Positions 3,048 through 52,400 of a DNA stretch of 64,000 nt are shown in pieces; position 1 is the first letter of the stretch; each line of letters begins with the position of its first letter. Source of the DNA: Naegleria gruberi (Eukaryota); NCBI GenBank assembly GCA_000004985.1, contig GG738850.1; one strand, given 5' to 3'. A model generated the notes under the pieces. It worked only from the letters and a program-made list of their open reading frames with translations. It was not told the origin of the DNA and searched no databases. Both the position numbers and the translations under genes were made by a program.

Positions 3048-3938
3048 GTGTTTTTAGAAATGAAAAAGTCCAACAGTAAAGCTAATTCTTCATCTTCTTC
3101 TTCAACCATCACCATGATCAATTCAAATATTTCATCTTCTCCTTCAAGTAGTAGCAACAAATCTAGTCAACCAGGAAATAATTTTATAGCTAGACCAATT
3201 TTTAGAGGAGAATTCAAAAATTACAAAGTTGATAAACCAAAAAAGATGAGCAAATCAATTAAATCAAATCAAAGAAAGGAGAAGAAACCAATGGAAACTC
3301 AAGTCAACTTGCAAAAGACAGTTCCGATTACTAATCAAAAGAAGGAATCAATAATGAGCCAACTCACATTCCATGAAAGCTATTCCAAAGATTTGTGTCC
3401 ATTCGGAAAGGTTAAAGTTAAGAATAATCCTGTCAGAAATCATCCCTATGTTCAACAATTTGTTTTGAATACTTGTCAATCTACATCTACAGTAATGGAT
3501 AGTGGAAGTTGCAGTTCATTTTCATCACCATCTAATAGATCTCCTAAATTAACAATTTCAAAAACTCCAATTGAAACTTTACAACCTCCAAAAAAGGAAA
3601 ATTTCATATTTCACTTTAAGGTAAATGAAGGAAATCCACAACAAATAACCAATTTACAAAGATCTTCACCATTCCAAACATCATTCAATTCTTCATCAAG
3701 TTGTTCTTCCATGAGTTCTTCCCAAAATAGCAATAATAGTCAATTGACATTTCCAAATCAAGATACAAGTTGTGTGAATGCAAAGCCAATCATGATGGAA
3801 AGTGCCATTGTGCATGAACCAGAATTAATCATCTTGCCACCTTTCAGACAAGTTGATAAATCAGAGAATATCAAAATTCCTTCCATTAAATATATTGAGA
3901 GCATGATACATCATCCAACAAGAATTCATTCACAATAA
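3048..3938 (+). CDS. Ser/Asn-rich low-complexity hypothetical protein
   Basis: 296-aa ORF with S/N homopolymeric runs (SSSSSS, NSNISSSPSSSSNKSS) and no recognisable domain. Divergent from the HMG-box gene across a roughly 0.8-kb AT-rich intergenic region. Confidence 0.4.
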   Translation: MFLEMKKSNSKANSSSSSSTITMINSNISSSPSSSSNKSSQPGNNFIARPIFRGEFKNYKVDKPKKMSKSIKSNQRKEKKPMETQVNLQKTVPITNQKKESIMSQLTFHESYSKDLCPFGKVKVKNNPVRNHPYVQQFVLNTCQSTSTVMDSGSCSSFSSPSNRSPKLTISKTPIETLQPPKKENFIFHFKVNEGNPQQITNLQRSSPFQTSFNSSSSCSSMSSSQNSNNSQLTFPNQDTSCVNAKPIMMESAIVHEPELIILPPFRQVDKSENIKIPSIKYIESMIHHPTRIHSQ

Positions 3939-4078
3939 ATATTGTCCTTCAAAATTAAACTGTATTATTAAGCCAGAGAAAATCTCTTTGAATGTTCTAA
4001 TCGAAACAAATCCCAAATGTCAGCCAATGTGGAATAGCTTCTAGGTACATTAATTACCTTAACCTTAATCATTCATCA

Positions 4079-4167
4079 GGGTGGTTAGCTCAGCGGTAGA
4101 GCACCGGATTGCAAAGTTAATTGCAGCAGACATCCGATGGTCACGTGTTCGATCCACGTACCACCCT
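4079..4167 (+). tRNA. tRNA-Cys (anticodon GCA) with a 17-nt intron in the anticodon loop
   Basis: GGGTGGTTAGCTCAGCGGTAGAGCACCGGATTGCAAA[gttaattgcagcagaca]TCCGATGGTCACGTGTTCGATCCACGTACCACCC+T folds as a cloverleaf with acceptor GGGTGGT/ACCACCC, D stem GCTC/GAGC, T stem ACGTG/CACGT, T loop TTCGATC and anticodon loop TTGCAAA. Intron is about 4116..4132. The track ORF 4081..4266 is just a translation of this tRNA. Confidence 0.85.
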
Positions 4168-4570
4168 ACCTTTTACCTTCTTTTGAGTTATAAGAAATTG
4201 TTAATTCTTCTTTTGAGTGTTCTTTTAACTTGTATTGAAAAAAAGCTCGTTCAAGATAAAGAGTGAATGATCTTCATTAAATTCTTATTGATAAATTAAC
4301 TGTGAGAATGGTATTATTTGGGTTAGCTTGGTGATTAATCAGAAAGGTGGCATTTCATGAATGTTTACAATATTACAAAGACAGTCTCAGAATTCTAAAA
4401 TAGAACTCAAATTGTTGTTTGTTACAAAAGACACTAATCTCTTGATTGGTTCTTCGGTGAGAAAACAAGGATTTTTGTGTCTCTTGGCAGACACAACCTT
4501 TATAAATATCCAACCTTGTAGCATAGCAATTTTAAAAAACAAAGCGAAACCTTTCCATCAATAACAAAGA

Positions 4571-5314
4571 ATGGTAAAATCAGATCAACCTACCGCACCA
4601 ACTGGCACACGTTGTAAAACATGTGTTTGTGGAGAAACAGGGTGCGAACATATCAAGCAATTGAGAAAAATGACTGGTAAAGGGAAACCATATATCAAAA
4701 GCTTTAATGAAAAGATCCAACGTTTAATAACATTAGAAATGAAGGACGAATTTGAGAAGTTTTTAAAGGGAGAATTGACAAAAATCAACTTGGATTCTCT
4801 CAAGCCAAAGACTGGAAAAGAATACGAACTTGGTATTAAAGTTGAATTTTATGATGTCATTGAAGTGAAGTGGAAGAAAACTATTCAAACATGTGACAAC
4901 TCTAACTCAAGTATTGGATCAAGTGCTAATCCACTCCGTTCTCCACAAACAGGTAATGATATCTTAAATTTTTTTGAAGAAGCCAATGAAGACAACATGT
5001 CAGATTCATCAGTCAACCTTGATGAAATGAATGAATCTCAAACAATCCATTCACAGCCTAAATATAAGTGTATGGTAGATACTCCAGAAAGTTTGCAAAT
5101 GATCTGTCTATCTGATATTGAATTGAGAAGCTATTCCAATTTAAAAACACGTTTGAGTGAAAAGTTCTCATGTACTGTTGGTAGCATCTATTTCAAATAT
5201 CAACAGGATCGTAAAAAGTGCCTGTTGGAAGATGATAGAGATTTAATGGATTTATTTAGTCGTGAATTAATAAAGAGTCAAAAGGATTGGGAAAACTTTA
5301 TAATTTCCATTTGA
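4571..5314 (+). CDS. Hypothetical protein with a C-terminal PB1-like domain; N-terminal Cys cluster (CKTCVCGETGC)
   Basis: 247-aa ORF. The C-terminal segment ICLSDIELRSYSNLKTRLSEKFSCTVGSIYFKYQQDRKKCLLEDDRDLMDLF resembles the PB1/OPCA acidic motif (YxDEDGD-like). It lies between the two inverted tRNA-Cys copies. Confidence 0.4.
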   Translation: MVKSDQPTAPTGTRCKTCVCGETGCEHIKQLRKMTGKGKPYIKSFNEKIQRLITLEMKDEFEKFLKGELTKINLDSLKPKTGKEYELGIKVEFYDVIEVKWKKTIQTCDNSNSSIGSSANPLRSPQTGNDILNFFEEANEDNMSDSSVNLDEMNESQTIHSQPKYKCMVDTPESLQMICLSDIELRSYSNLKTRLSEKFSCTVGSIYFKYQQDRKKCLLEDDRDLMDLFSRELIKSQKDWENFIISI

Positions 5315-5364
5315 TTTTGGATTAAAAATTAATAATTTCTTATAACTCAAAAGAAGGTAAAAGG

Positions 5365-5453
5365 AAGGGTGGTACGTGGATCGAACACGTGACCATCGGA
5401 TGTCTGCTGCAAATATCTTTGCAATCCGGTGCTCTACCGCTGAGCTAACCACC
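5365..5453 (-). tRNA. tRNA-Cys (GCA), second copy in inverted orientation, with a 17-nt intron
   Basis: The reverse complement gives exons identical to the 4079..4167 copy. The intron (gatatttgcagcagaca) differs at 3 positions. The 31 nt 3' of the tRNA (ccttttaccttcttttgagttataagaaatt) are also identical to the flank of the first copy. Track ORF 5267..5452 is spurious. Confidence 0.85.
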
Positions 5454-5529
5454 CTGTTGTGGTGTTAAGAATTAAGACGATCACTGCAGTACCCTACATA
5501 CTAAGGCTATACAAAACTCCACCATAATA

Positions 5530-6378
5530 ATGAGTGCTTTGTTTTGGGTTGAGTTCAAACAAACTTTACAAAAAAATGAAGCAACACACAATGATGAACA
5601 ATCTAAACAACATTCCAACGAGTTGAGAATGGATCATGACGATGCACTAAAGAGACTCAATGTTCAATCATTAGAAAAGTTAAAAATTGCCAATCAGCAA
5701 CATTCCGATCAGCAAATTAATGATGAAAATTCTTCATCGTTTATGATGGAAATTAATTCTGATCCTCATCAGGACGGAATTAAATTACAAATAATTAAAG
5801 GGAGTATTGTCGATCTGCCAATATATATCGATACTATTGTGAATGCTGCTAATGAAAGTTTGATGGGAGGAGGTGGAATTGATCAAATTATTCATGCTAG
5901 AGCTGGTGATGAGCTCAAATTGGAATGTAAAACTAAATATTCTCCATCTTGTCTGAAAATGAAAGGTTCCATTACCTATGGAAATGATGAATTGGAATAT
6001 AGATGTGCCACTGGAGAGGCTGTCATTACTCAAGCACATAATTTGAGTGAGAAATGTCAATATATTATTCATACAGTTGGACCATATTTGGATGAAAATG
6101 GAAATACTCAACCAGAACTATTATCAAACTGTTACAATTCATGTTTACAGTTAGCTATGGAAAATAATCTGAAATCTATTGCATTTCCTTGCATTAGTAC
6201 TGGATATTATGGTTATCCAATCGAAGAAGCTTGTAGACTAGCTCTAAAAATAGTCAAAAACTTTCTTCATTCACATCTGAATAAGCAATCATCTTTGAGG
6301 CATATCATTTTTGTAATTTTCAATGATTTGGAGTTTGAAATTTACAAAATTTTATTTCAAACCATTTCGTCTTTGTGA
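5530..6378 (+). CDS. Macro-domain (ADP-ribose-binding/processing) protein
   Basis: The C-terminal ~180 aa, IIKGSIVDLPIYIDTIVNAANESLMGGGGIDQIIHARAG ... IAFPCISTGYYGYP, carries the macro-domain signatures (NAAN, GGGGV/I, AIHRAAG-like, ISTG). The N-terminal ~95 aa is low complexity. Confidence 0.8.
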   Translation: MSALFWVEFKQTLQKNEATHNDEQSKQHSNELRMDHDDALKRLNVQSLEKLKIANQQHSDQQINDENSSSFMMEINSDPHQDGIKLQIIKGSIVDLPIYIDTIVNAANESLMGGGGIDQIIHARAGDELKLECKTKYSPSCLKMKGSITYGNDELEYRCATGEAVITQAHNLSEKCQYIIHTVGPYLDENGNTQPELLSNCYNSCLQLAMENNLKSIAFPCISTGYYGYPIEEACRLALKIVKNFLHSHLNKQSSLRHIIFVIFNDLEFEIYKILFQTISSL

Positions 6379-7547: not shown

Positions 7548-9149
7548 ATGCAAAACTCCAAGTCGAGGAGTTTCATCTCCGTCTTTGCTTTCATCTTGGT
7601 GATGACATTATTTACCAGCAGCAACAATCAAGTATTAGCCAATAATAATAATATTAAACTTGCTGGCTCACCAAAGCACGTCTATCAAGTTGGAGAACCT
7701 GAATTTTGGTTCCATCAACGTATCGATCACTTTAATGCATTGAACACTGATACTTTCCCACAACGTTATTACAAGTTTGTTCCGGAGGGAGTTTCAGCAT
7801 CATCACCTAATCACTTGTTGTACATTTGTCCTGAGGCTACTTGTGGAGGAACACCAAATAATTATGTGAAAAATTATGCTATGGAATTGAAGGCTACAAT
7901 TTATACTTTGGAACATCGTTTTTATGGTAAATCAGGTATGTTTTTCAATGATGATGATGATGATATATTAATTTATAATGTTGAATATTTATTAATTTAT
8001 TGGATAATATTGGAAATTTGATGAATGAATTAATGTGGAATAATGTGTGAAATTGTATGAATAATTGGAATAGTTCCTTACAAATCAATGAAGACTGTTA
8101 ATATGGCCAATTATTTAAAGACAGAAATGGCATTGGCTGACTTGTCAGTCTTTATTGAATATATTGCAACATTGCCATCAGATAATAATACTCCTCATCA
8201 ATTTATTATTGTTGGATGTAGTTATCCAGGTGCATTGAGTGCATTCTTCTCTATGAAATATCCACATCTTGTCAAGGGTGCCTTGTCATCATCTGGTGTT
8301 GTCAACTCTATTTTGGACTTTTATACTTTTGATATGCATGTTCAACAAGCTGCTGGTCCTGAATGTACTGCTCTCTTGACTCGTGCTACTTCTATTATGG
8401 AAAAGATGAATCCAACCAATTTGTTGAGAGATTTCCAAGCTCCAGCAGATATGGATATTAGAGATTTGTTCCTTCTTTTTGGTGATATTGCTGGTGAAAG
8501 CGTTCAATATGGATATCATTATGAATTGTGTAATGCCATGAAGAGTGGTAACACTAATTTGGATGAAGTTATTTATCAAAATTTCCACAATTATTCTCTT
8601 AATTTTTTCTACAAGGTATTCGAAACCTCACCATTGGATTATTACAATGGAGCTATTGGTAATGATAATTATGATCCTTCACAAGGAGCTAATGGTGGCA
8701 GATCTTGGTGGTTGCAAACCTGTTCTGAACTCTCCTATTTCAATACTGCCCCACCAAAGAATTTGCCATCCATTAGAAGTAGATGGTTGGATTTGGACTA
8801 TTTCTATGACAAGTGCAAAAAGATCTTTGGATATCCAATTAAACCAAACACTGACTTTGTCAATAACCAATATGGTGCCAAGCAATTGTTGAATACCACT
8901 ACAGGAAGAACTGTCTTTGTCAATGGTAGCCAAGATCCTTGGCTTAGAGCTGGTGTTGATATTGATCCAAAGAAATTCAGTTTCTTGATTGAATGCAACA
9001 ATTGTGGACATTGTGTTGACTTGAGAGGTTGTCCAAGTTGGGCTCAAAATCAAGAAATCAATTATAAGTGTGTTGAAAATGGTAATGAACAAGTTGCAAA
9101 GATTAGACAACAAACTTTAGCAATTATGAAAGTTTGGTTCCACATGTAA
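7548..9149 (+). CDS. Serine carboxypeptidase S28 family (Pro-X carboxypeptidase / DPP2-like), 2 exons
   Basis: Signal peptide present. S28 N-terminal motif FWFHQRIDHFN...FPQRYY, and the nucleophile motif GCSYPGALSAFFSMKYPHLVKGALSSSGVV (GxSYxG). Intron about 7936..8073 (GTATGT...AG, 138 nt) joins FYGKS|VPYKSMKTVNMANYLKTEMALADL, restoring the conserved S28 ...YL..E.ALADL segment. Exons: 7548..7935 and 8074..9149. Confidence 0.8.
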
Positions 9150-11957: not shown

Positions 11958-12230
11958 GAGCTGTTTGATATTAATGGTGCAACTCTAACTGATCATTTTA
12001 CAGTTGAGTGCAAACAACTAACTTCAAAGTTCCAAAATTCAAAGTAATTCAGGTCCCTAATCTAGAACTAAGGTCCATAGCTCAAGCTCACTACTCGAGA
12101 AATAGTTTATTCTTTCGTACTGATTTGTGTATAGTATACGAAACTGGCAGAAAAGTTGCAAAGTCAGTGGTGCTCTAGTTTTTGCGTGCTTGCTTTAGAA
12201 ATATCTGTGGTCCCATTTCGGTTTGTTAGA

Positions 12231-12420
12231 TTTTTATTTTTTATTTTTACTTTTTATTTTTTATTTTTATTATTTTTATGATTTGATATTGGGNNNNNNN
12301 NNNNNNNNNNNNNNNNNNNNNNNNNNNNNNNNNNNNNNNNNNNTATAAATGGGCATGTGCCGTGCCAATATCAAATCATAAAAATCATAAAAATATAAAA
12401 ATAAAAAATAAAAATCTGGT
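12231..12420. repeat. Assembly gap (50 N, 12294..12343) embedded in an imperfect AT-rich inverted repeat / palindrome
   Basis: Left flank ...atttttatgatttgatattggg and right flank ccaatatcaaatcataaaaat... are exact reverse complements. Further out, tttttattttttattttt motifs are mirrored on both sides. Confidence 0.7.
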
Positions 12421-20994: not shown

Positions 20995-23900
20995 CTACCA
21001 GAAAAGGAAACTGAAATTAAGCTTTCTAATAACCCACTTTCTCATTTCATCATAAAAAATCATCAAAAACATCCAAGGAATTGGATACAACCAAAAGTCA
21101 ATAATCATAAATCTCGTATTGAAAATATAATCTCCAATGAATGGAACATAAATTAAAATCACCAACAAGCAAGCAGAATAGATTAATCCAAAATAGGTCA
21201 TTAAATTACCCAATAATCCATGTGTGAAAATGCTCAATCGACGAGTTTTGCAACTGAATAGAGTGGCCCATTGACAAATGACAATTGTCATGAAAAATGC
21301 TGTTTGTGCAGTGCATAGAACGTTATGTTGATACATCTTATCCAAATACATTCCAGTTTCTTCAATGTAAAGCTTTTTATCCGAATTGATATCGAAATAA
21401 TCCTTGCTAGTTGCTTCCCAAAGATATTTTGGTGGAATTCCATAATAAGCAAAGACTAGGAAGTAATTTGTAAAGCATGCAAGAGTTTCAATTACTCCCA
21501 TTTGGAGATAGGAAAAGATTAATAAGGAAGAGCTTACTAGTGGTTGATTCTTGGTACGAGGTGGAATGCTCATAATGTCAGATTCGGCTGTTTCGTAGGC
21601 GAGACTGACTGCACTGATGAGCTCCTTTTTAAGATTTTAAATTTGATATATTTGGATAATATAAAAATTGATAAATTAAGAATTTTCCAAATAAGTAAAA
21701 CTTACAGTTCCCAAATCAACACACAAAATCAATAAACCTGTAATTGGAAGAGGCATGCTAAATACAATAAAAACTAAATAAGGGAAAATTTCTGCAGATA
21801 AATGTGAAACAGTATAAGCAATTGACTTTTTCAAATTGTCAAAAATCAATCTGCCTTCCTTAATACCATTCACAATCGAAGCAAAGTTATCATCCAACAA
21901 GATTATAGCAGCTGCTTCTTTAGAAACAGCACTTCCTGAAATATTCATAGCCACACCTACATCTGCCTTCTTTAGAGCAGGTGAATCATTAGTTCCATCT
22001 CCTGTCACAGCGACACAATGCCCCAATTCTTGGAATTTTGTAACGATAATCAATTTTTGTTGAGGTGAAGTTCTGGCAAAGACAATTTGCTTCTTTTTAA
22101 GAATTTGTTTCCATTCCTTAGATGTCAACTTGTCAATTTCTTCTCCGTGTAAAACAATGGCATCAGCTCTACTGTATGGAATGGTTTTTGGATCACAACT
22201 TTCTTCCTCTGCGATATCGTCAATGGTTCTGGCGTCTGATTCGATAATTCCAACTTGTTTGGCTATGGCTTTGGCTGTGGCTGGGTGATCTCCTGTGACC
22301 ATGACTACTTGAATTCCTGCTTTCTTACATTGTCCAATACATTCAGGAACTCCTACTTTTGGAGGATCAGTCAATCCAGCCATTCCCAAAAAGCAAAGAC
22401 CTTCCATTGGAATGGATTGAGCAATTTGATCAGAAGTTTGTCCAGATTTCTCAATTCTTAATTGTTCCTCAACCAAATGTTCATCAATGAAAAGTTGGGC
22501 AAAACCCAAAACTCTCTCACCCTTAGAAGCAAAGAAATCATAGGCGTCCTTAAAATTTTGTTTCCAATTATCGTCCAATGGTAAAGTTTGTGAGCCAACT
22601 CTGATGTGTGAACAACGTTGAATGATTCTCTCTGGGGCTCCTTTCATGAGCAACAAAACTTTGGAATCAGTACTGGCACTGTCAGTGGTATTGGTAGTCC
22701 ACTGAGGGAGGTGATTATTCTTTCTAATACTTAACATCCACTTGTTTTTAGAATTGAATGGAATGGAATAAAGTTCAGTATAATCAGAACGAAACTCTTC
22801 AATGGTAGCACAATCAGTTCTTGTCTGAATGAATTTAACTAAAGCTGTCTCACTAGCATCTCCTTCACATTCTCTGTCCAAAATTGGTTTTCTCAAATTG
22901 TCTTCCTCTGGCACGAAATAAGTTTTCGAGCAGAGAGCTGAACATCTTCTCAACATTTGATCAGTTGTCAATTGTTCTTCACCTTCTTTTGAGTAACTTG
23001 TTAATGGAGTTAAGGTGCTTGGCTTTTGGGTCATGTATCTGTCTTGGTAATCTACAGAAGAAACTCTTCCATCTACCCATAGCTCAACAACTGTCATTCT
23101 GTTTTGTGTCAAAGTTCCTGTCTTGTCACTACAAATAACTGATGTACTGCCAAGTGTCTCAACATGCTCAAGCTTTTTAACGAGGACATTCACTGCCTTT
23201 AGACGTTTAGCACTGACTGTTAAGCAGACAGTTACTGTAGGAATCAATCCTTGTGGAATGTTAGAAATGATTATACCAATAGCAAATAAAAAATTAGTGA
23301 ACCAACTGTTTCCAATAGCAAATCCTAAACAGAAGAAAATAATGGCCATTGTGAAGGCCAGAACAGCAATCTTTCTAACAAAACTGTCAATTTCTCTTCT
23401 GAGTGGAGTTTTCTTTTCAGTTGAAGCTCCTGCCAATAAAGCAATTTGACCAATGACAGTTTGATTTCCACATCTAATTACGATACCATAACCACTTCCT
23501 TCCAAAGCCAAAGTTCCAAAGAATACCAAATTATTTGTTTCCAAAGGATTCTTTGAAGTCATTTCCACACTCCTTGATTGAGGTTCAGTTTCTCCTGTCA
23601 AGGAAGCATTATCAAGTTTTAGTTGTGAACAAGAAACCACACGTAAATCAGCTGGAATTTTATCACCACCCTCAATTCTAACCAAATCACCCAAAACCAA
23701 TTCTTCAACTGGAATTTTTTGTGGAATTCCATCACGAATCACCATACAGCTGTCACTTTGCATTTGTTGAAAACTCTGCAAAACCTTCTCACTCGATCTT
23801 TCCTGAACCAATGTAATGGTAGCATTCATAATCACAATAAACCACAAGATGACACCCAGAAATATATTCGGATAGGATTCAGTTGTTCTCTCAATGGCAA

Positions 23901-33595: not shown

Positions 33596-33667
33596 GCTTT
33601 GTAATAAAATAAAAGATTTTCTAAGGTCGCCTATTCATATTCATCCAGAATGATTGCAGTCATAAAA

Positions 33668-33785
33668 GACTACAGCACCACAGGTTCCCAAGTTGTCTCC
33701 AACCTCAGTACTGATGTGGCTCGACGATGCTTAACTTCTCAAATCGGACGGGATGAGGTGCATTCATCGTGATATGGCCGTAGCC
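33668..33785 (-). rRNA. 5S ribosomal RNA gene (118 nt)
   Basis: Minus-strand sequence GGCTACGGCCATATCACGATGAATGCACCTCATCCCGTCCGATTTGAGAAGTTAAGCATCGTCGAGCCACATCAGTACTGAGGTTGGAGACAACTTGGGAACCTGTGGTGCTGTAGTC matches the universal 5S pattern: ACGGCCATA, CCCGTCCGAT, box A GAAGTTAAGC, AGTACT, GGGAGAC-like, GGTGCTGTAG. Helix I pairs the 5' and 3' ends. It is followed by TTTT (Pol III terminator) and lies 73 bp downstream of the LMBD1 stop, on the opposite strand. Confidence 0.85.
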
Positions 33786-34325: not shown

Positions 34326-34396
34326 TCGGGTGTGGTATAGTGGTAGCATTCCAGACTGTCACTCTGGCGACCCGGGTTCAATTCCCGGCACTCGAG
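34326..34396 (+). tRNA. tRNA-Asp (anticodon GTC)
   Basis: TCGGGTG TG GTAT AGTGGTA GCAT T CCAGA CTGTCAC TCTGG CGAC CCGGG TTCAATT CCCGG CACTCGA G. Acceptor has one G-U, a 4-nt variable loop as in tRNA-Asp, and discriminator G. One A-C mismatch in the D stem. Followed by TTTTTT (Pol III terminator). Confidence 0.75.
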
Positions 34397-42671: not shown

Positions 42672-42744
42672 TGCCGACACCAGGGATCGAACCAGGGACC
42701 TTAAGATCTTCAGTCTTACGCTCTCCCAACTGAGCTATGTCGGC
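42672..42744 (-). tRNA. tRNA-Phe (anticodon GAA)
   Basis: Minus strand GCCGACATAGCTCAGTTGGGAGAGCGTAAGACTGAAGATCTTAAGGTCCCTGGTTCGATCCCTGGTGTCGGCA is a canonical cloverleaf, near-identical to eukaryotic tRNA-Phe-GAA. It is followed by T7 on its own strand (Pol III terminator) and sits only about 10 bp from the stop codon of the upstream + strand ORF. Confidence 0.9.
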
Positions 42745-45506: not shown

Positions 45507-48500
45507 TTACTTTTTTCTACTGTCCTGCATTTCCCACTCACTATCCATTGGATTTTCCTCCAAATCAACTTCTCCAATCTTGACCAATTTCTTGGCAAAC
45601 TTTGGATTTAAAGCAAAATTCTTATATTGCATTTCAGGTTTAGGTTTTTCAATTTTAGTTTCTGGTTTAAGGCAACCAATTAGAATAAAGATACAACAAG
45701 TGAACATTAGAATGACTATCAAAACTGCCATGACAACAAGAGGGATCCATAGAATATCATTACCAGAGAATGTTTCAGGAAGAATAATTGGTTTAGCTTC
45801 TTCCACAATAATGATCTCTCCCCTTATTTCTAAAATACCTATCATTTGATTATCAAAACATGTGCAAACGCCTGTTGAGTTATCAGCCAGAGAAAATGAA
45901 CATGAAGGTGCATTAGTAATCTTTCCATCACTTAAAGTCTTGCATTCATATTTGTAAAAAACGTTTGAATTATTGTAGCCAACTTGTTCAGTAAGTGGAA
46001 TGAAAAACATGATAGGGGCTGTTAAGTTGTTCATATTTACCACTTGATTACTCGAGTTGACTATTGAAAGGAAAACAGTTGTTTTTGATTTGATGCTTGT
46101 TTTTGACTTGATAACTCGTTTAGGTTCTACAACCACAAACGAATCTGAATTGTATATTCCTTGATTATTAATGGAATATAATGAATAACTCCATGGTTTC
46201 ACGCTTGAGAGGGCAAGTTTTGGTAAAGTGACTTTTACACTCTGTGATGTAATATACATTTCTGAAAGCTCATCAGCAAAATGTCTATTTGAAGTAATGG
46301 TTGAATAACCAACATTGCTACTAGATGGCTCACTCCCTAATATCATATTTCTTTTGGATAATTCTGAAATGTAAGTTGAAAATTTCAAAAACTCAGAATC
46401 ATATTTCAAGTTGAATTCTAATTTGTTCACATTTTCGAACAATACTGAAATAAATCCTGACAGCAACTTTTCAACTCCATCTAAGAGTAAAATGTTCTTA
46501 TTTGAATAAGCTTCGCTCAAACATTTTTCAGAAGCATGAATCAAAAGCGACAATCTACCCTCATCTAGGGAGCTTACACTTTTAGAAAGTGAAAATGCTG
46601 AATAAATAAAGCTGGTGACAGATTCAGTAGTTAATGGATTAAGAGATTTTTCCCTTCCAACTTCTTCATTAGCCAAATTGGTTATAAAATCAAATTTAAG
46701 CTCCTCTATCAATGCATCAACATTTGAAGTGGAGGTAATTCTTTTTGTTGTTGAGTTTGACAATAGTTGGTCCTTAATCATTGTAACAATTGAGGTGATG
46801 GTTGCCGTGTTAAATACATTTTGAGAAAGAGTTTCTTCTTGCTTTTCCTGGATAGATCTTCTTGTCCAAGTCGAAATGAGGGATTTCAATTCTGTAATTT
46901 CACTAACAGTTGGTGGAATAATGGCGACACTGGTTTTGACAATCATATCAGTGTCGGTATCATGATCTACAATCTTAATATAGAGATCTAAGGTTCCAGA
47001 ATTTGATACTGGTAAATATTGAGACATTGATTTGTTTGATGATTGAGCAGAGCTGGAGGCTATTGGGATATTCAAACCTGAATAATTATCAATAAAACCA
47101 TATTCAAAATCAAAGGAGGGTTCTGTTTCACAATTTGGACATCTAAAAGAAAATTCTGTGCTAAGAGCATAACCAAGAGAAGGGGTTACTGAACATTCAC
47201 ACAGCTTTGGGAATTTCACAACCCTGAATTGATAAGACAAAGTTGAAGATAACCAACTAGATTCATCATCCACTCTTAGAGTGAGAATATAAACGCCTTC
47301 ATCCATATATTGAGTATCTATAATAATAGAGTTTGAGATAGACAATGGATTTCTCATTTTCTTTAGCAATGCTTGATCTATTTTAGTCCCATTAATCCTC
47401 CAAATTCTTTGAACGCGATTGATATCTTCAACTCCTTGAATTCCAACTTGAAGATTTAAAATCTCACCCTTTTTTACACTCTTTGGGTTCACAGAGCTGT
47501 AGAGAAGATTAATGACTGGTGGAATGCCAAACTTTGAATCTAAAGGGAAATTAATTTGTAAAGAGGAGGAGACATTCCTAAAACCTTTCACCACATTAAG
47601 GTTTATATCTATAGGAGCATTCCAAAAGCTTTGATTGTCTGGCTTGAAAATGGTTACATAGTTTGGTTCAGAATTGAAATTTAACAGAGAAGAACAAGTG
47701 TCCCCGTTCATAAAACAAGACCATAACATCTGTTCCTTCTCTGTTGTGTGGTCATTGTCAGTGAGGGAATATGCAAGAACGTATTTTGTCGAGGAGGCTT
47801 CTACTGCGAATAATTGCAAATCCAACTCTGAAATTCTAGTTTGAATGTTAAAGGTTGATGTAAATTTAGATGTTAAATACTCATTCATCGAGTTAAATTC
47901 AATTGAAAATGAATAGAGAGAATCCATCAGTGTAGAATATCTTGAAATAACCAAGTTGTTATAGTTATTTACAGAGAATGTTAGAGGAGGCCCATCTACC
48001 TTGGCATAGCTTGTAGTATAGGTAAAGTTAGAGGATACACAATTTGGATTGATTGTCTTTTTGAATACAATCGGTAAATCACTCACACTAACAACTTTGG
48101 AACCAATGAATACAGGAGGTTGTGGATCCGAGTTCATATCAAATGTGAAGGTAGTTTCACTTTCTGTTTTGAATAAGGTACTTTTCACTTTCAGTTTGAA
48201 AATGTGAACACCTCTGGAGTAGTCATTGAATTTGAAGAAGACAGTCTTAGCACCATTATTGTTGGCTTTCTGGAGGATAGTGTTAATCTTTGAATCTAAA
48301 GAGATAACACTCCACTCAAAAATGACAGGCTTTACATCTCTACTATAACTCTTCGATCCATCCAGAATGAAATCATCACATAATGAGTGTTTCTCTATTC
48401 TCACAGTAGGTGCCAATGGGGATGATGGAGGACTAACATTCATTTCAACAAAGGAGCCATTTGAATTCTCTCCTAGTACTTCCACATTGATATATAGGAT

Positions 48501-51500
48501 GCCCCCTAGTCTTAATGTAAAATCTTCACCAAGATTAATATAAAAGGTGCTATTTTTCCATTCACAAGACGGGAGAGTTCCTAAAAGCTCATTATTCAGA
48601 ACCACTTTTTTACAATCCACATAGTAAAGAGAAGGAAAAAATCCATTAGTTTCTAGGGAAATCTTATCGCCATTGTCTGAGAATTTCAAACCTGATTTAA
48701 AGCTCAACTGGCATTTGGCACCAAAATAGTTTTCCAAACAAGTCTCGCATTTAGTTCCTTTCCAAAATCCATTTTTCTGGTTCGAATAACATATACATGT
48801 TCCATTCATTTGGCATTCACCATGATAGGAACAAGATGAAGGTGAACTACATGGTGTTGTTTTACATTCTTCTCCAAAATAAGGATGCATGCATTGATCA
48901 CATTTATCTCCACTCCAGTATCCCTTAATATCATCTTGATAACAGGAGCAAGAATTCAGTTGTTTACATTCTCCATGACGACTGCAGACACTAGTATTTG
49001 AATACTCAATACCAAAGCAATAAAAGTTTTTACATTCTTTACCATAGAAACCATCTCTGCATTCACAAATATCAGGAGATTTACAATAGCCTTGACTTGA
49101 ACAAACATTATAACTCTGTGAAGATTTTCCATAACAGTTGAACAGATTGCATTCAGCTCCATAAAACCCTTCTTTGCAAGAACAATTATTTGGAGAAGTA
49201 CATATTCCATTTGATGAGCATACATTTTCACTGGCGAAATCTATGCTAAAGCAGGAATAATTGCTGCACGTTAATCCTTCATATCCATTTTCGCATTTGC
49301 ACAAGTTTGGGGCAATACATTCTCCATTTGAATGACAAGTTCCTGGATCATTATTTGAAATATTAAAACAATCAAATTGTTCACATTCATCACCGTAGTG
49401 ACCTATGTTGCAGGAACAATTGTTAGGACCTGCACAGGACCCGTTTGAAGAGCAAGCTATGGAATCATTCCTTTCAATCCCAAAACAGGAGAAGTCAGAG
49501 CAATCAACACCAAAGTAACCACTAGTTGTACAATTACATACATCCCTTGAGACGCAATCACCATTACCTGAACAAACATTGGTATTATTATTCAAAACTC
49601 CAAAGCAGTAGAAATTTTCACACCTATCTCCAAAGAAGTCAGAGAAACAATCACACTCATTTGGTTTGATGCACACTCCATTTCCTGAGCAGACCTCCTG
49701 GCTTGTATTCACAACCCCAAAACATGACGCAAATTCACAACTATCACCACTGAAACCATCAAAACAGGAGCAATTATTGTAATCAAAACATTGCCCTAAT
49801 GAAGAACATGCTAAGGAATGGTTTGAGGGATATCCAAAACATGTAAATTCATCACATTTTTCTGAAAGATATCCTTCAAAGCATAAACACTCATCACTAG
49901 AGACACATTTACCATTCCCACTGCAAACATTTGAGCTATTAGAAGAGTAACCATAACAATCGAAAAGAGAACATTCCAGTCCATGATATCCATCATCGCA
50001 TGAACAGTTATTAGGTCCTAAACACATTCCGTTTGAGGAACATACAGATGTCTCTGTTTCATTCTTTCCAAAGCATTCAAAGTGTTCACAATTATTGCCA
50101 TAAAAACCTTCCAAACATGAACAGTTACCTGGGGATACGCATAGACCATTAGATGAACATACAGCTGTTGAATTGTTTTCCAATGAGAAACAGGTAAACT
50201 TTTCACATTGGTTTCCATAATAACCTTCATAACAAGTGCAGTTGTTTGGTGAGGAACAAAGACCATTTCTTGAACAGGAATCCACTGTTGAACTCTCAAT
50301 CCCAAAACAATCATAAAAAGTACACTCTAAACCATAATATCCACTGAAACATGTGCAATTATTTGGGGAATGGCAATCACCATTTGAAGAGCAAACTGAA
50401 CAGTCCGTTTCATTCTTTCCAAAACATTGATGGTACTGACAATTATTTCCAAAATATCCTTCTTCACAAGTGCAGTTATTTGGAGAGTTACACTCACCTC
50501 TCGAAGTACAGACTAAGGTTGAATTGTGTTCAATGTTAAAACATTGATACATGTTGCACTCTATTCCATAGTATCCTTGATGACAGGAACAATTATTATA
50601 AGAAGAACAACAGCCATTATACGAGCATACTTCCTCTCTTGAATGCTCAATACCAAAACAATCGAATAATGAGCAATCCGTTCCATAGTATACTCCTTCA
50701 CAGGAACAATTATTTGGACTTGAGCAAATACCATTCCCAAAGCAAACACTGGAGTTATCTTTCCTTATTCCATGACAATTAAAATATTGACACATATCTC
50801 CATAGTAATTGGGACTACATGAACAATTATTGACAGTCACACACAACCCTCTCCCACTGCAGACTCCCGAAAAGTTAGCAGGAATATTGAAGCATTTAGG
50901 TATTTCACAACTACTTCCTATCCAAGAATCATTGCATGAGCAGGAATTAGGAGAGGAGCAATTACCATGATTGCTGCACACTCCGCTCTCTCCATTGGTT
51001 TTACCAAAACAAACAGGAGAACTACAATCTTTTCCTGTCCACATTGTAAAATCTGAACATGTACAATTATTAGGAGACACGCATGTTCCGTGTCCAGAGC
51101 AAGTTGCTGGGAGGTCTTTTTCAATTGAGTAACAATAGTAATTTTGGCAAAGGTTTCCACTATAGCCATTTGAGCAATCACAATGGTCAATGTAAGAGCA
51201 AACTCCAAACGAAGAGCAAACAGTTGAATTATTCCATAAAACTCCACCACAGCTGGTATGGGTCAATTTTCTAACTCTAAAATTCGAAGTATCTGCAATG
51301 AAAACTTCATTAGAAATATTTGAATACGAAATTGAGTAAACTGAATCAATTTGAGCAGACAGAGAATCTGTTCCATCACCCACACTCCCTGAATTCCTTG
51401 CAGATCCAGCAATTGTTCGTATAATTCCATTTGAATAAACCTTCCTTATTACATAATTATCACTGTCAGAAATAAGCATTTCACCTGCTGATGTAAAGGC

Positions 51501-52400
51501 TATTGATGTTGGACTGCTTAATTGAGCTTGTTTAGCTTGACCTCCATCTCCTAAATATCCACTCACACCTGTACCAACAACTGTGATAATCTTGTTATCT
51601 AATCCAACCTTTCTAATAACATTATTGCCAGTGTCAGCAATAAACAACTCGCCCGTTGTTGGTGATATGGCAACATCGTTAGGGCTGTTGAGTTTAGCAC
51701 TTGTGGCAACACCATTATCTCCACCATATCCTAACAGAGAACAAGTGCCTGCAGCTACACTCACAACCGTTCCACTAATTTTACCAATACAATGATAGGT
51801 ATAATCTGAAAAGTATAAGACTCCACTCGAAGAAACTGCCAATCCCAATACTTGACCAATAGTAGAACTGGTTGCAGTTCCTTCAGTCAAAGCTCCTTTT
51901 GTTCCTTTTCCAATAACTGTGGAAATAATTTGATTCGTTGATATCTTTCTAATTCTATAATTTAGAGAATCACCCAAATACAAAGTCCCGTCTCCACTAT
52001 AAAAAGCCAAAGCTTGAGGTTTGTTGAGCTTGGCAGATGTCGCTACACCATTATCACCAAAATACCCTCCTGAAGATCCAGTTCCTGCTATTGTTTTGAT
52101 AATTCCATTCGATACTTTCCTTATTCTGTGATATGTTTTATCGGCAATGTACAAATCTCCATTCGATCCTACTTCAATAGCATCTACATAACCAATTGAA
52201 GCATGACTAGGGGATACACCATCTCCAGAATTTCCCTCATTACCATCCCCAACATAGGAGGTGATAGTAAATCGCTCGATTTGATCTGTGACTACTACAC
52301 CATTAAGGCTATTCAATATGATTAATATTAATATAACAATATACATCACTCGGCTATTACGGATTATTGTACAACCATCCGATCCTTTTGACTTCATCAT
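45507..52400 (-). CDS. Giant type-I membrane protein: signal peptide, ~6 NHL repeats, ~25 tandem EGF/tenascin-type Cys repeats, ~1000-aa Cys-poor extracellular region, single TM, short cytoplasmic tail
   Basis: Single 2297-aa ORF. NHL-like YIADKTYHRIRKV, LYLGDSLNYRIRKI, FIADTGNNVIRKV, LISDSDNYVIRKV, FIADTSNFRVRKL. Repeated CxGxGxCxSPNNCxCxxGYxGxxC units from about aa 390 to 1150. TM is ILWIPLVVMAVLIVILMFTCCIFILIGCL near the C-terminus. Confidence 0.7.
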   Translation of the reverse strand: MMKSKGSDGCTIIRNSRVMYIVILILIILNSLNGVVVTDQIERFTITSYVGDGNEGNSGDGVSPSHASIGYVDAIEVGSNGDLYIADKTYHRIRKVSNGIIKTIAGTGSSGGYFGDNGVATSAKLNKPQALAFYSGDGTLYLGDSLNYRIRKISTNQIISTVIGKGTKGALTEGTATSSTIGQVLGLAVSSSGVLYFSDYTYHCIGKISGTVVSVAAGTCSLLGYGGDNGVATSAKLNSPNDVAISPTTGELFIADTGNNVIRKVGLDNKIITVVGTGVSGYLGDGGQAKQAQLSSPTSIAFTSAGEMLISDSDNYVIRKVYSNGIIRTIAGSARNSGSVGDGTDSLSAQIDSVYSISYSNISNEVFIADTSNFRVRKLTHTSCGGVLWNNSTVCSSFGVCSYIDHCDCSNGYSGNLCQNYYCYSIEKDLPATCSGHGTCVSPNNCTCSDFTMWTGKDCSSPVCFGKTNGESGVCSNHGNCSSPNSCSCNDSWIGSSCEIPKCFNIPANFSGVCSGRGLCVTVNNCSCSPNYYGDMCQYFNCHGIRKDNSSVCFGNGICSSPNNCSCEGVYYGTDCSLFDCFGIEHSREEVCSYNGCCSSYNNCSCHQGYYGIECNMYQCFNIEHNSTLVCTSRGECNSPNNCTCEEGYFGNNCQYHQCFGKNETDCSVCSSNGDCHSPNNCTCFSGYYGLECTFYDCFGIESSTVDSCSRNGLCSSPNNCTCYEGYYGNQCEKFTCFSLENNSTAVCSSNGLCVSPGNCSCLEGFYGNNCEHFECFGKNETETSVCSSNGMCLGPNNCSCDDGYHGLECSLFDCYGYSSNSSNVCSGNGKCVSSDECLCFEGYLSEKCDEFTCFGYPSNHSLACSSLGQCFDYNNCSCFDGFSGDSCEFASCFGVVNTSQEVCSGNGVCIKPNECDCFSDFFGDRCENFYCFGVLNNNTNVCSGNGDCVSRDVCNCTTSGYFGVDCSDFSCFGIERNDSIACSSNGSCAGPNNCSCNIGHYGDECEQFDCFNISNNDPGTCHSNGECIAPNLCKCENGYEGLTCSNYSCFSIDFASENVCSSNGICTSPNNCSCKEGFYGAECNLFNCYGKSSQSYNVCSSQGYCKSPDICECRDGFYGKECKNFYCFGIEYSNTSVCSRHGECKQLNSCSCYQDDIKGYWSGDKCDQCMHPYFGEECKTTPCSSPSSCSYHGECQMNGTCICYSNQKNGFWKGTKCETCLENYFGAKCQLSFKSGLKFSDNGDKISLETNGFFPSLYYVDCKKVVLNNELLGTLPSCEWKNSTFYINLGEDFTLRLGGILYINVEVLGENSNGSFVEMNVSPPSSPLAPTVRIEKHSLCDDFILDGSKSYSRDVKPVIFEWSVISLDSKINTILQKANNNGAKTVFFKFNDYSRGVHIFKLKVKSTLFKTESETTFTFDMNSDPQPPVFIGSKVVSVSDLPIVFKKTINPNCVSSNFTYTTSYAKVDGPPLTFSVNNYNNLVISRYSTLMDSLYSFSIEFNSMNEYLTSKFTSTFNIQTRISELDLQLFAVEASSTKYVLAYSLTDNDHTTEKEQMLWSCFMNGDTCSSLLNFNSEPNYVTIFKPDNQSFWNAPIDINLNVVKGFRNVSSSLQINFPLDSKFGIPPVINLLYSSVNPKSVKKGEILNLQVGIQGVEDINRVQRIWRINGTKIDQALLKKMRNPLSISNSIIIDTQYMDEGVYILTLRVDDESSWLSSTLSYQFRVVKFPKLCECSVTPSLGYALSTEFSFRCPNCETEPSFDFEYGFIDNYSGLNIPIASSSAQSSNKSMSQYLPVSNSGTLDLYIKIVDHDTDTDMIVKTSVAIIPPTVSEITELKSLISTWTRRSIQEKQEETLSQNVFNTATITSIVTMIKDQLLSNSTTKRITSTSNVDALIEELKFDFITNLANEEVGREKSLNPLTTESVTSFIYSAFSLSKSVSSLDEGRLSLLIHASEKCLSEAYSNKNILLLDGVEKLLSGFISVLFENVNKLEFNLKYDSEFLKFSTYISELSKRNMILGSEPSSSNVGYSTITSNRHFADELSEMYITSQSVKVTLPKLALSSVKPWSYSLYSINNQGIYNSDSFVVVEPKRVIKSKTSIKSKTTVFLSIVNSSNQVVNMNNLTAPIMFFIPLTEQVGYNNSNVFYKYECKTLSDGKITNAPSCSFSLADNSTGVCTCFDNQMIGILEIRGEIIIVEEAKPIILPETFSGNDILWIPLVVMAVLIVILMFTCCIFILIGCLKPETKIEKPKPEMQYKNFALNPKFAKKLVKIGEVDLEENPMDSEWEMQDSRKK

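What the first reader, a model, noticed from the sequence alone, without database searches (positions are those of the whole stretch)
4079..5453. Inverted duplication of intron-containing tRNA-Cys(GCA) genes bracketing a small protein-coding gene
Two tRNA-Cys genes (4079..4167 + and 5365..5453 -) face each other and enclose the PB1-like ORF 4571..5314. Their exons are identical and 31 nt of the 3' flank are identical too, yet the 17-nt anticodon-loop introns differ at 3 positions. That pattern points to an inverted segmental duplication in which the mature tRNA and an adjacent conserved element are maintained, by gene conversion or selection, while the intron drifts. The conserved 3' flank may be a downstream Pol III element such as a terminator or external box. 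The convergent arrangement means Pol III units on both sides of a Pol II gene, which could act as insulators or as a retroelement-targeting hotspot.
Basis: seen in the sequence. Interest (0 to 1): 0.6.

Follow-up and report, generated by a model that had tools for sequence, protein, structure and literature searches.

The report
Inverted pair of tRNA-Cys genes
Two working copies of an intron-containing cysteine tRNA gene in the amoeba Naegleria gruberi point toward each other across a small species-specific gene, and this looks like an ordinary short local duplication of a tRNA gene rather than a new kind of genetic element.

Summary
The window is Naegleria gruberi nuclear DNA. Two tRNA-Cys(GCA) genes, each with a 17-nt intron at the standard 37/38 position, lie at 4079-4167 (+) and 5366-5454 (-). 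Rfam gives 54.7 bits each, and ARAGORN finds both when introns are allowed. They sit in a 136-nt inverted repeat (4074-4209 / 5324-5459) with 6 mismatches. This is the strongest repeat in the 64 kb.

The exons are identical. The introns differ at 2 positions, not 3; the third difference is the base just after the tRNA. A 31-nt stretch of the 3' flank is identical, but the 42-nt homologous flank has 3 differences in all. That rate is indistinguishable from the intron's (Fisher p=0.62), so nothing shows a specially conserved downstream element.

The first 17 nt of the flank carry two T4 runs, plausible Pol III terminators. There is no external B box. Similarity falls to background just outside the arms.

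The enclosed ORF (4571-5314) is an orphan, and PB1 similarity is not supported. No retroelement lies nearby.

Best reading: a short local inverted duplication, with selection keeping the exons intact. Same-amino-acid tRNA gene pairs are already counted in N. gruberi (PMC2888827). Interest is low.

The parts
4074..4209 (+). Left arm of the 136-nt inverted repeat: 5 nt of leader, the tRNA gene and 42 nt of 3' flank
   Evidence: the repeat finder pair I1; blastn 95.6% over 136 nt; per-position mismatches
4079..4167 (+). tRNA-Cys(GCA) gene, left copy. Exon 1 is 4079-4114, the intron 4115-4131 (17 nt; the boundary can shift by 1 nt because of a repeated A), and exon 2 4132-4167. The discriminator is T and no CCA is encoded.
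   Evidence: Rfam RF00005 54.7 bits; ARAGORN -i Cys(gca) i(38,17); cloverleaf plus anticodon-intron helix in the minimum-energy fold
4168..4209 (+). Homologous 3' flank of the left copy. T4 runs at 4171-4174 and 4181-4184 are likely the Pol III terminator and a back-up. The identical 31-mer is 4169-4199.
4571..5314 (+). Orphan 247-aa protein-coding ORF between the arms, named 'predicted protein' of N. gruberi at NCBI. Its stop codon lies 9 nt before the right arm.
   Evidence: ORF; 100% match, the only hit among 5.8 bn proteins; full HMMER scan of 1.84 bn representatives: itself plus one weak partial hit, 25% identity over residues 98-166; no domain, no usable model
5366..5454 (-). tRNA-Cys(GCA) gene, right copy. 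Exon 1 is 5454-5419, the intron 5418-5402, and exon 2 5401-5366.
   Evidence: Rfam 54.7 bits; ARAGORN -i; fold
5324..5365 (-). Homologous 3' flank of the right copy. T4 runs lie at +4 and +14, and a T5 run at +38 falls at the end of the homology.
5324..5459 (-). Right arm of the inverted repeat

Best explanation
This is a short local inverted duplication of a nuclear tRNA-Cys(GCA) gene in Naegleria gruberi. The copied DNA segment was about 136 bp. It covers roughly 5 nt of leader, the 89-nt intron-containing gene and 42 nt of trailer that includes the Pol III terminator T-runs. It now lies 1.1 kb from its source in the opposite orientation, so the two genes converge on an unrelated orphan gene.

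Both copies keep everything a eukaryotic tRNA gene needs, so both are probably transcribed by Pol III, spliced by the tRNA splicing endonuclease and used. Purifying selection on the mature tRNA keeps the 72 exon positions identical. The leader, intron loop and trailer have picked up about 9% differences at similar rates. The 31-nt identical stretch is shared ancestry (partly terminator), not a separate conserved element.

Shown here: the genes, their folds, the extent of homology and where the differences lie. Inferred: the direction and mechanism of the duplication, and expression and splicing of both copies.
For: - The organism is identified by a 100% protein match to N. gruberi.
- Both tRNAs score 54.7 bits on RF00005 against a gathering score of 29, and ARAGORN calls both Cys(gca) with a 17-nt intron at the standard position.
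- Both precursors fold into a cloverleaf with the anticodon stem extended by an anticodon-intron helix and a single-stranded bulge before exon 2. The two intron differences fall in the hairpin loop.
- The discriminator is U73 and the anticodon GCA, the known identity elements for CysRS (established knowledge; read).
- The arms are 136 nt with 6 mismatches, and identity drops to the 20-35% background within a few bases on both sides.
- None of the 6 mismatches is in the 72 exon positions (p=0.0095). Intron and flank rates do not differ (p=0.62).
- T4 runs lie at +4 and +14 in both copies. The 5S gene ends in T4, tRNA-Asp has T6 at +6 and tRNA-Phe has T7 at +2.
- The flank is unique to the pair within the window.
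- N. gruberi has 924 tDNAs. Same-amino-acid pairs within 1 kb are several-fold more common than random: ++ 8, +- 4, -+ 0, against 1.02, 0.51 and 0.51 expected (PMC2888827). This shows local tDNA duplication is common there, in the same +/- orientation as here.
Against: - Only 64 kb of the genome could be read. I could not test whether the same flank follows other tRNA-Cys copies elsewhere, which would point to a family-wide unit or master copy rather than a local event.
- A weak similarity in the 5' flanks (TTAATT..CTTAAC, p about 0.02) could be the trace of an older, longer duplication whose core was later homogenised by gene conversion.
- The identical 31-nt run is borderline unlikely (p about 0.06), so mild constraint on the trailer is not excluded.
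- There are no expression data.
Confidence: 0.72

Rival explanations
1. This is an older, larger duplication in which only the tRNA gene and its near flanks were later homogenised by gene conversion between the two copies. The surrounding DNA has diverged beyond recognition.
For: The 5' flanks share a weak motif (TTAATT..CTTAAC) at about the same distance from the gene, p about 0.02 against shuffles and against random window 40-mers. Exon identity with sharp homology borders fits a conversion tract. Conversion between dispersed tRNA genes is established in fission yeast (my own knowledge, not checked here).
Against: There is no similarity at all beyond +42 on the 3' side (shuffle test p=0.90). 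The ungapped 5' flank identity of 10/30 is background. A conversion tract normally ends inside pre-existing homology, so 42 nt of shared trailer still requires a shared origin for that trailer.
Confidence: 0.15
2. The 136-nt unit is a genome-wide tRNA-Cys module. Either all tRNA-Cys copies share this trailer because it is a selected downstream Pol III element, or copies spread from a master gene. One route could be retroposition of an unspliced read-through Pol III transcript. Under this reading the two copies here are independent insertions.
For: The homology spans roughly what a Pol III primary transcript would cover: about -5 to a T-run. In the right copy it ends at a T5 run at +38 to +42. 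N. gruberi has an unusually high tDNA count of 924. The 31-nt run is borderline long (p about 0.06).
Against: No target-site duplication, A-rich tail or simple-repeat tail is visible at either arm. Two T4 runs lie well before +42, and T4 appears sufficient for the 5S gene. There is no B-box-like element in the trailer. The trailer's difference rate equals the intron's. The trailer is not seen after other Pol III genes in the window. Two independent insertions 1.2 kb apart would be a coincidence.
Confidence: 0.08
3. The whole 1386-bp segment (4074-5459) is a mobile cassette. The tRNA-bearing arms would be terminal inverted repeats and the ORF its cargo or transposase.
For: The geometry fits: 136-nt terminal inverted repeats bracket a single ORF.
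Against: No direct repeat flanks the unit (sequence). The ORF has no transposase or any other domain. It has no paralogue in N. gruberi or anywhere else, so it is single-copy. The repeats are complete functional tRNA genes.
Confidence: 0.02

Closest known systems
Same-isoacceptor ('homogeneous') tDNA pairs in eukaryotic genomes, as counted by Bermudez-Santana et al. 2010 (PMC2888827), including N. gruberi
   Same: Two genes for the same amino acid lie close together in +/- orientation. That paper's supplement lists 4 such +/- pairs and 0 -/+ pairs in N. gruberi against about 0.5 expected of each, and attributes clusters to local DNA duplication.
   Different: The gap here is 1198 nt, just above that paper's 1000-nt cut-off, so this pair was not in its count. 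Here a protein-coding gene sits between the copies.
Dictyostelium discoideum tRNA gene pairs and triplets with identical anticodons
   Same: Identical tRNA genes occur as nearby pairs in a compact, AT-rich protist genome (PMC8163159, citing the genome paper).
   Different: The lineage is different. Dictyostelium tRNA genes often carry an external B box and attract TRE retrotransposons (my own knowledge). Neither an external B box nor any retroelement domain in the neighbouring ORFs is seen here.
Canonical eukaryotic intron-containing pre-tRNA (intron one base 3' of the anticodon, cut by the tRNA splicing endonuclease)
   Same: The intron lies between positions 37 and 38. It pairs with the anticodon loop, and the 3' splice site lies in a single-stranded bulge.
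   Different: Nothing differs structurally. I did not check how common an intron in tRNA-Cys is among eukaryotes.

Membership tests
Nuclear tRNA gene (Rfam RF00005) | Covariance-model score above the gathering threshold, full-length match | tested here: met
   54.7 bits against 29, model positions 1-71 of 71, both copies
tRNA-Cys | GCA anticodon and U73 discriminator | tested here: met
   ARAGORN calls Cys(gca). The discriminator T is at 4167 / 5366.
Canonical eukaryotic tRNA intron | Intron between positions 37 and 38, an anticodon-intron helix, and a 3' splice site in a bulge | tested here: met
   ARAGORN i(38,17). The minimum-energy folds of both precursors show the extended anticodon helix with a 6-nt bulge. 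Splicing itself was not tested.
Pol III type 2 gene | Internal A and B boxes and a downstream T-run terminator | tested here: met
   A box TAGCTCAGCGG and B box TGTTCGATCCA read from the sequence. The B box matches 7 of 10 consensus positions. T4 runs lie at +4 and +14 in both copies.
Local tDNA duplication (homogeneous pair) | Same isoacceptor, close together, with homology extending into non-coding flanks | tested here: met
   136-nt arms that include the intron and 42 nt of trailer, 1198 nt apart
Dictyostelium-type external B box | A second good match to the B-box consensus within about 100 nt downstream of the tRNA gene | tested here: not met
   Best match is 5 (left) and 6 (right) of 10. 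In random 100-mers of the window the commonest best match is 6.
tRNA-derived SINE or retroposed tRNA copy | Target-site duplication, A-rich or simple-repeat tail, many dispersed copies | tested here: inconclusive
   No target-site duplication or tail at either arm. Copy number in the genome could not be tested: metagenome and viral scans found nothing.
TIR DNA transposon | Target-site duplication, a transposase, and multiple copies | tested here: not met
   No flanking direct repeat. The ORF has no domain and no paralogue.
PB1 domain protein (Pfam PF00564) | A match to the PB1 profile or fold | tested here: not met
   No Pfam family at E<=10. The PDB sequence search gave only E about 0.5 hits to the caspase-8 pro-domain. 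The AlphaFold model is unusable, pLDDT 32, so the fold itself is untested.

The most novel reading that the evidence does not exclude
N. gruberi may create same-isoacceptor tRNA gene pairs preferentially in the convergent (+/-) orientation. The published count within 1 kb is 4 to 0, and this pair adds one. The copied unit matches a Pol III transcription unit (about -5 to a T-run). That would point to a tRNA-gene-specific duplication mechanism, such as fold-back repair at a Pol III replication-fork barrier or reinsertion of unspliced read-through pre-tRNA, rather than random segmental duplication.
Probability: 0.08. Interest if true: 0.5.

Novelty: new member of a known kind. Interest (0 to 1): 0.15.

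Why it matters
It matters little beyond annotation. The region adds two intact intron-containing tRNA-Cys genes and one more example of local tDNA duplication in a genome already known to hold about 900 tDNAs. The pair could help date duplication against divergence in non-coding tRNA flanks. The 136-nt inverted arms could in principle allow the enclosed orphan gene to be inverted. The one slightly wider question is whether Naegleria's same-type tRNA pairs are biased towards convergent orientation, and that needs the whole genome.

Tried and rejected
Rerunning with -i found them.
- **Exact-protein look-ups** of the ORF, the Macro ORF, the HSP20 ORF and the NCBI models P0001 and P0003 found no N. 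gruberi contig. The rest of the genome could therefore not be read.
- **Two metagenome scans** with exact 27- and 28-nt tRNA-Cys exon patterns found nothing. A viral-contig scan with the 31-mer also found nothing.
- **The N. lovaniensis Macro orthologue locus** (L001) has no tRNA within 10 kb either side and shares only the Macro gene with the window. The pair therefore cannot be dated by synteny.
- **The PB1 idea for the ORF** got no support. There was no Pfam hit at E<=10, nothing significant in the PDB sequence search and an unusable single-sequence AlphaFold model with pLDDT 32. A full HMMER scan of 1.84 bn representatives returned only the protein itself and one weak partial hit.
- **External B box** in the trailer: rejected.
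- **A 14-17-nt match** of the trailer at 22978-22994 lies inside a 723-aa ORF and is taken as chance.
- **A lenient Rfam scan** of 3500-6000 found no further RNA.
- **The bacterial-type promoter and terminator scan** is uninformative for a eukaryote.
- **The Dictyostelium genome paper** was not held in the library.

Full report
**Where the window comes from.** ORF 4571-5314 is 100% identical over all 247 residues to an NCBI 'predicted protein [Naegleria gruberi]' on a 707,703-bp contig. The window has 31-38% G+C throughout. It carries ordinary eukaryotic genes: an HMG-box protein, a Macro-domain protein, an HSP20, an intron-split S28 peptidase and an F-box-like protein. This is nuclear DNA of the amoeboflagellate N. 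gruberi.

**Checking the observation.**
- The default ARAGORN run found only tRNA-Asp and tRNA-Phe, because it does not look for introns.
- Rfam's tRNA model finds two further full-length tRNAs at 4079-4167 (+) and 5366-5454 (-). Each scores 54.7 bits against a gathering score of 29, confirmed in a lenient local scan.
- The repeat finder reports one inverted repeat: arms 4074-4209 and 5324-5459, 136 nt, 96% complementary, 1114 nt apart. It is by far the strongest repeat in the whole 64 kb.

**Where the two arms differ.** A position-by-position comparison gives six mismatches:

| Left / right position | Location |
|---|---|
| 4076 / 5457 | 5' leader (-3) |
| 4117 / 5416 | intron |
| 4120 / 5413 | intron |
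| 4168 / 5365 | first base after the discriminator (+1) |
| 4200 / 5333 | 3' trailer |
| 4207 / 5326 | 3' trailer |

The introns therefore differ at two positions, not three. The 31-nt identical stretch (4169-4199 = 5334-5364) is real. It has no other match in the window at up to 3 mismatches, with zero expected by chance. Outside the arms, identity falls to the 15-40% background within a few bases on both sides.

**Are these working tRNA genes?**
- Both precursors fold into a cloverleaf. The anticodon stem is extended by pairing between the anticodon loop (UGCAA) and the intron (UUGCA), followed by a 6-nt single-stranded bulge before exon 2. This is the standard layout of a eukaryotic intron-containing pre-tRNA.
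- Both intron differences lie in the hairpin loop. One of them adds an A-U pair in the right copy.
- The discriminator is U and the anticodon GCA, which are the known cysteine identity elements. No CCA is encoded. A-box and B-box sequences are present.
- Both copies have T4 runs at +4 and +14. In the same window the 5S gene ends directly in T4, tRNA-Asp has T6 at +6 and tRNA-Phe has T7 at +2.
- The first 17 nt of the conserved trailer are therefore plausibly a Pol III terminator plus a back-up.

**Is the trailer a specially conserved element?** The statistics say no.
- If six differences were spread evenly over 136 nt, the chance that none falls in the 72 exon positions is 0.0095. The exons are therefore constrained.
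- The intron (2/17) and the trailer (3/42) do not differ (Fisher p=0.62).
- A run of at least 31 identical bases, given three differences in 42 nt, has p about 0.06.
- The trailer has no B-box-like motif. The best match is 5-6 of 10, at or below the commonest value (6) for random 100-mers of the window.
- The trailer does not follow tRNA-Asp, tRNA-Phe or the 5S gene.
- A 14-17-nt partial match at 22978-22994 lies inside a long ORF and is taken as chance.
- The 5' flanks share only a weak motif (TTAATT..CTTAAC, p about 0.02). The 3' sides beyond +42 share nothing (p=0.90).

**The enclosed gene.**
- ORF 4571-5314 has no Pfam hit at E<=0.01 or at E<=10.
- It has no significant PDB sequence match, and the single-sequence AlphaFold model is unusable at pLDDT 32.
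- Apart from itself, its only relative among 1.84 billion representatives is one weak partial hit: E=5.7e-6, 25% identity over residues 98-166.
- It is an orphan, and 'PB1-like' is unsupported.
- Its stop codon lies 9 nt before the right arm. Its 3' end must therefore overlap the trailer of the right tRNA gene, or the gene itself, in antisense.
- It is single-copy, and no direct repeat flanks the 1386-bp unit. This argues against a mobile cassette.

**Context from elsewhere.**
- N. gruberi DNA beyond the window could not be reached.
- Metagenome and viral scans found nothing.
- The closest Macro orthologue is from N. lovaniensis, at 52% identity. It sits in a locus with no tRNA within 10 kb and no other shared gene, so synteny cannot date the pair.
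- Bermudez-Santana et al. 2010 (PMC2888827) count 924 tDNAs in N. gruberi. For same-amino-acid pairs within 1 kb they list 8 parallel, 4 +/- and 0 -/+, against 1.02, 0.51 and 0.51 expected at random. They attribute clusters to local duplication.
- The present pair is +/- with 1198 nt between the genes, just above their cut-off.
- Pairs and triplets of tRNA genes with identical anticodons are also a noted feature of Dictyostelium (PMC8163159).

**Explanation.**
- The simplest account is a short (about 136 bp) local inverted duplication of a tRNA-Cys gene together with its terminator-bearing trailer.
- Purifying selection then kept the mature tRNA sequence intact, while all non-exon positions drifted at a similar rate of about 9%.
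- The main rival is gene conversion of an older duplicate. It is weakened by the complete lack of homology beyond +42.
- A family-wide tRNA-Cys module (a master copy, or retroposed read-through pre-tRNA) cannot be excluded without the genome. It lacks the usual retroposition hallmarks.
- A transposon reading is essentially excluded.
- The insulator and retroelement-hotspot ideas are untested. No retroelement-type domain turned up in any of the neighbouring ORFs from base 1 to about 12 kb.

**Verdict.**
- The feature is real and its core was correctly seen.
- Three details need correcting: two intron differences rather than three, the right-copy coordinates, and the PB1 label.
- The central inference, that a conserved flank contrasts with a drifting intron, does not survive a simple test.
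- It is another instance of a known kind of arrangement in a published genome, and interest is low.

Noticed in passing
window 4179-4190 and 4206-4217: A 12-nt direct repeat, CTTCTTTTGAGT, occurs twice in the left trailer, 27 nt apart. The second copy straddles the inner end of the arm homology and is absent from the right copy. It could be a small local duplication or a junction microhomology from the duplication event.
   Followed up: partly
window 4055-4069 and 5464-5478: Both tRNA-Cys 5' flanks carry a doubled CTTAA motif at about -12 to -23 (left CCTTAACCTTAAT; right, reverse complement, TCTTAATTCTTAAC). Similarity is marginal (p about 0.02). It is either residual homology or an upstream Pol III motif.
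   Followed up: partly
window 33667-33785 (-) and 34326-34396 (+): A chromosomal 5S rRNA gene (105 bits) and a tRNA-Asp(GTC) gene lie 540 bp apart in divergent orientation. A tRNA-Phe(GAA) gene is at 42672-42744 (-). That makes five Pol III genes in 64 kb.
   Followed up: partly
window 5530-6378 (+): The Macro-domain ORF is 282 aa, but the NCBI model for N. gruberi is a 'partial' 177-aa protein covering 63% of it. The 264-aa N. lovaniensis orthologue aligns over 91% of the ORF, which suggests the longer model is right.
   Followed up: partly
window 7548-8021 and 8088-9149 (+): Two adjacent ORFs match consecutive parts of the S28 serine carboxypeptidase profile (profile positions 1-91 and 85-418). 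This is one gene split by a short intron near 8021-8088.
   Followed up: partly
window 45507-52400 (-), repeats at 49149-50726: A 2297-aa ORF carries NHL, many EGF-like (teneurin-type) and REJ domains. Its EGF region shows up as 117-nt tandem DNA repeats.
   Followed up: partly
window 12228-12417: An AT-rich imperfect palindrome made of TTTTTA-type units has arms of 44-49 nt, 80-86% complementary. Its nature was not examined.
   Followed up: no
window 5312-5365: The orphan gene's stop codon is 9 nt from the right arm. Its mRNA 3' end must therefore overlap the convergent tRNA gene's trailer, a possible site of Pol II / Pol III interference.
   Followed up: no
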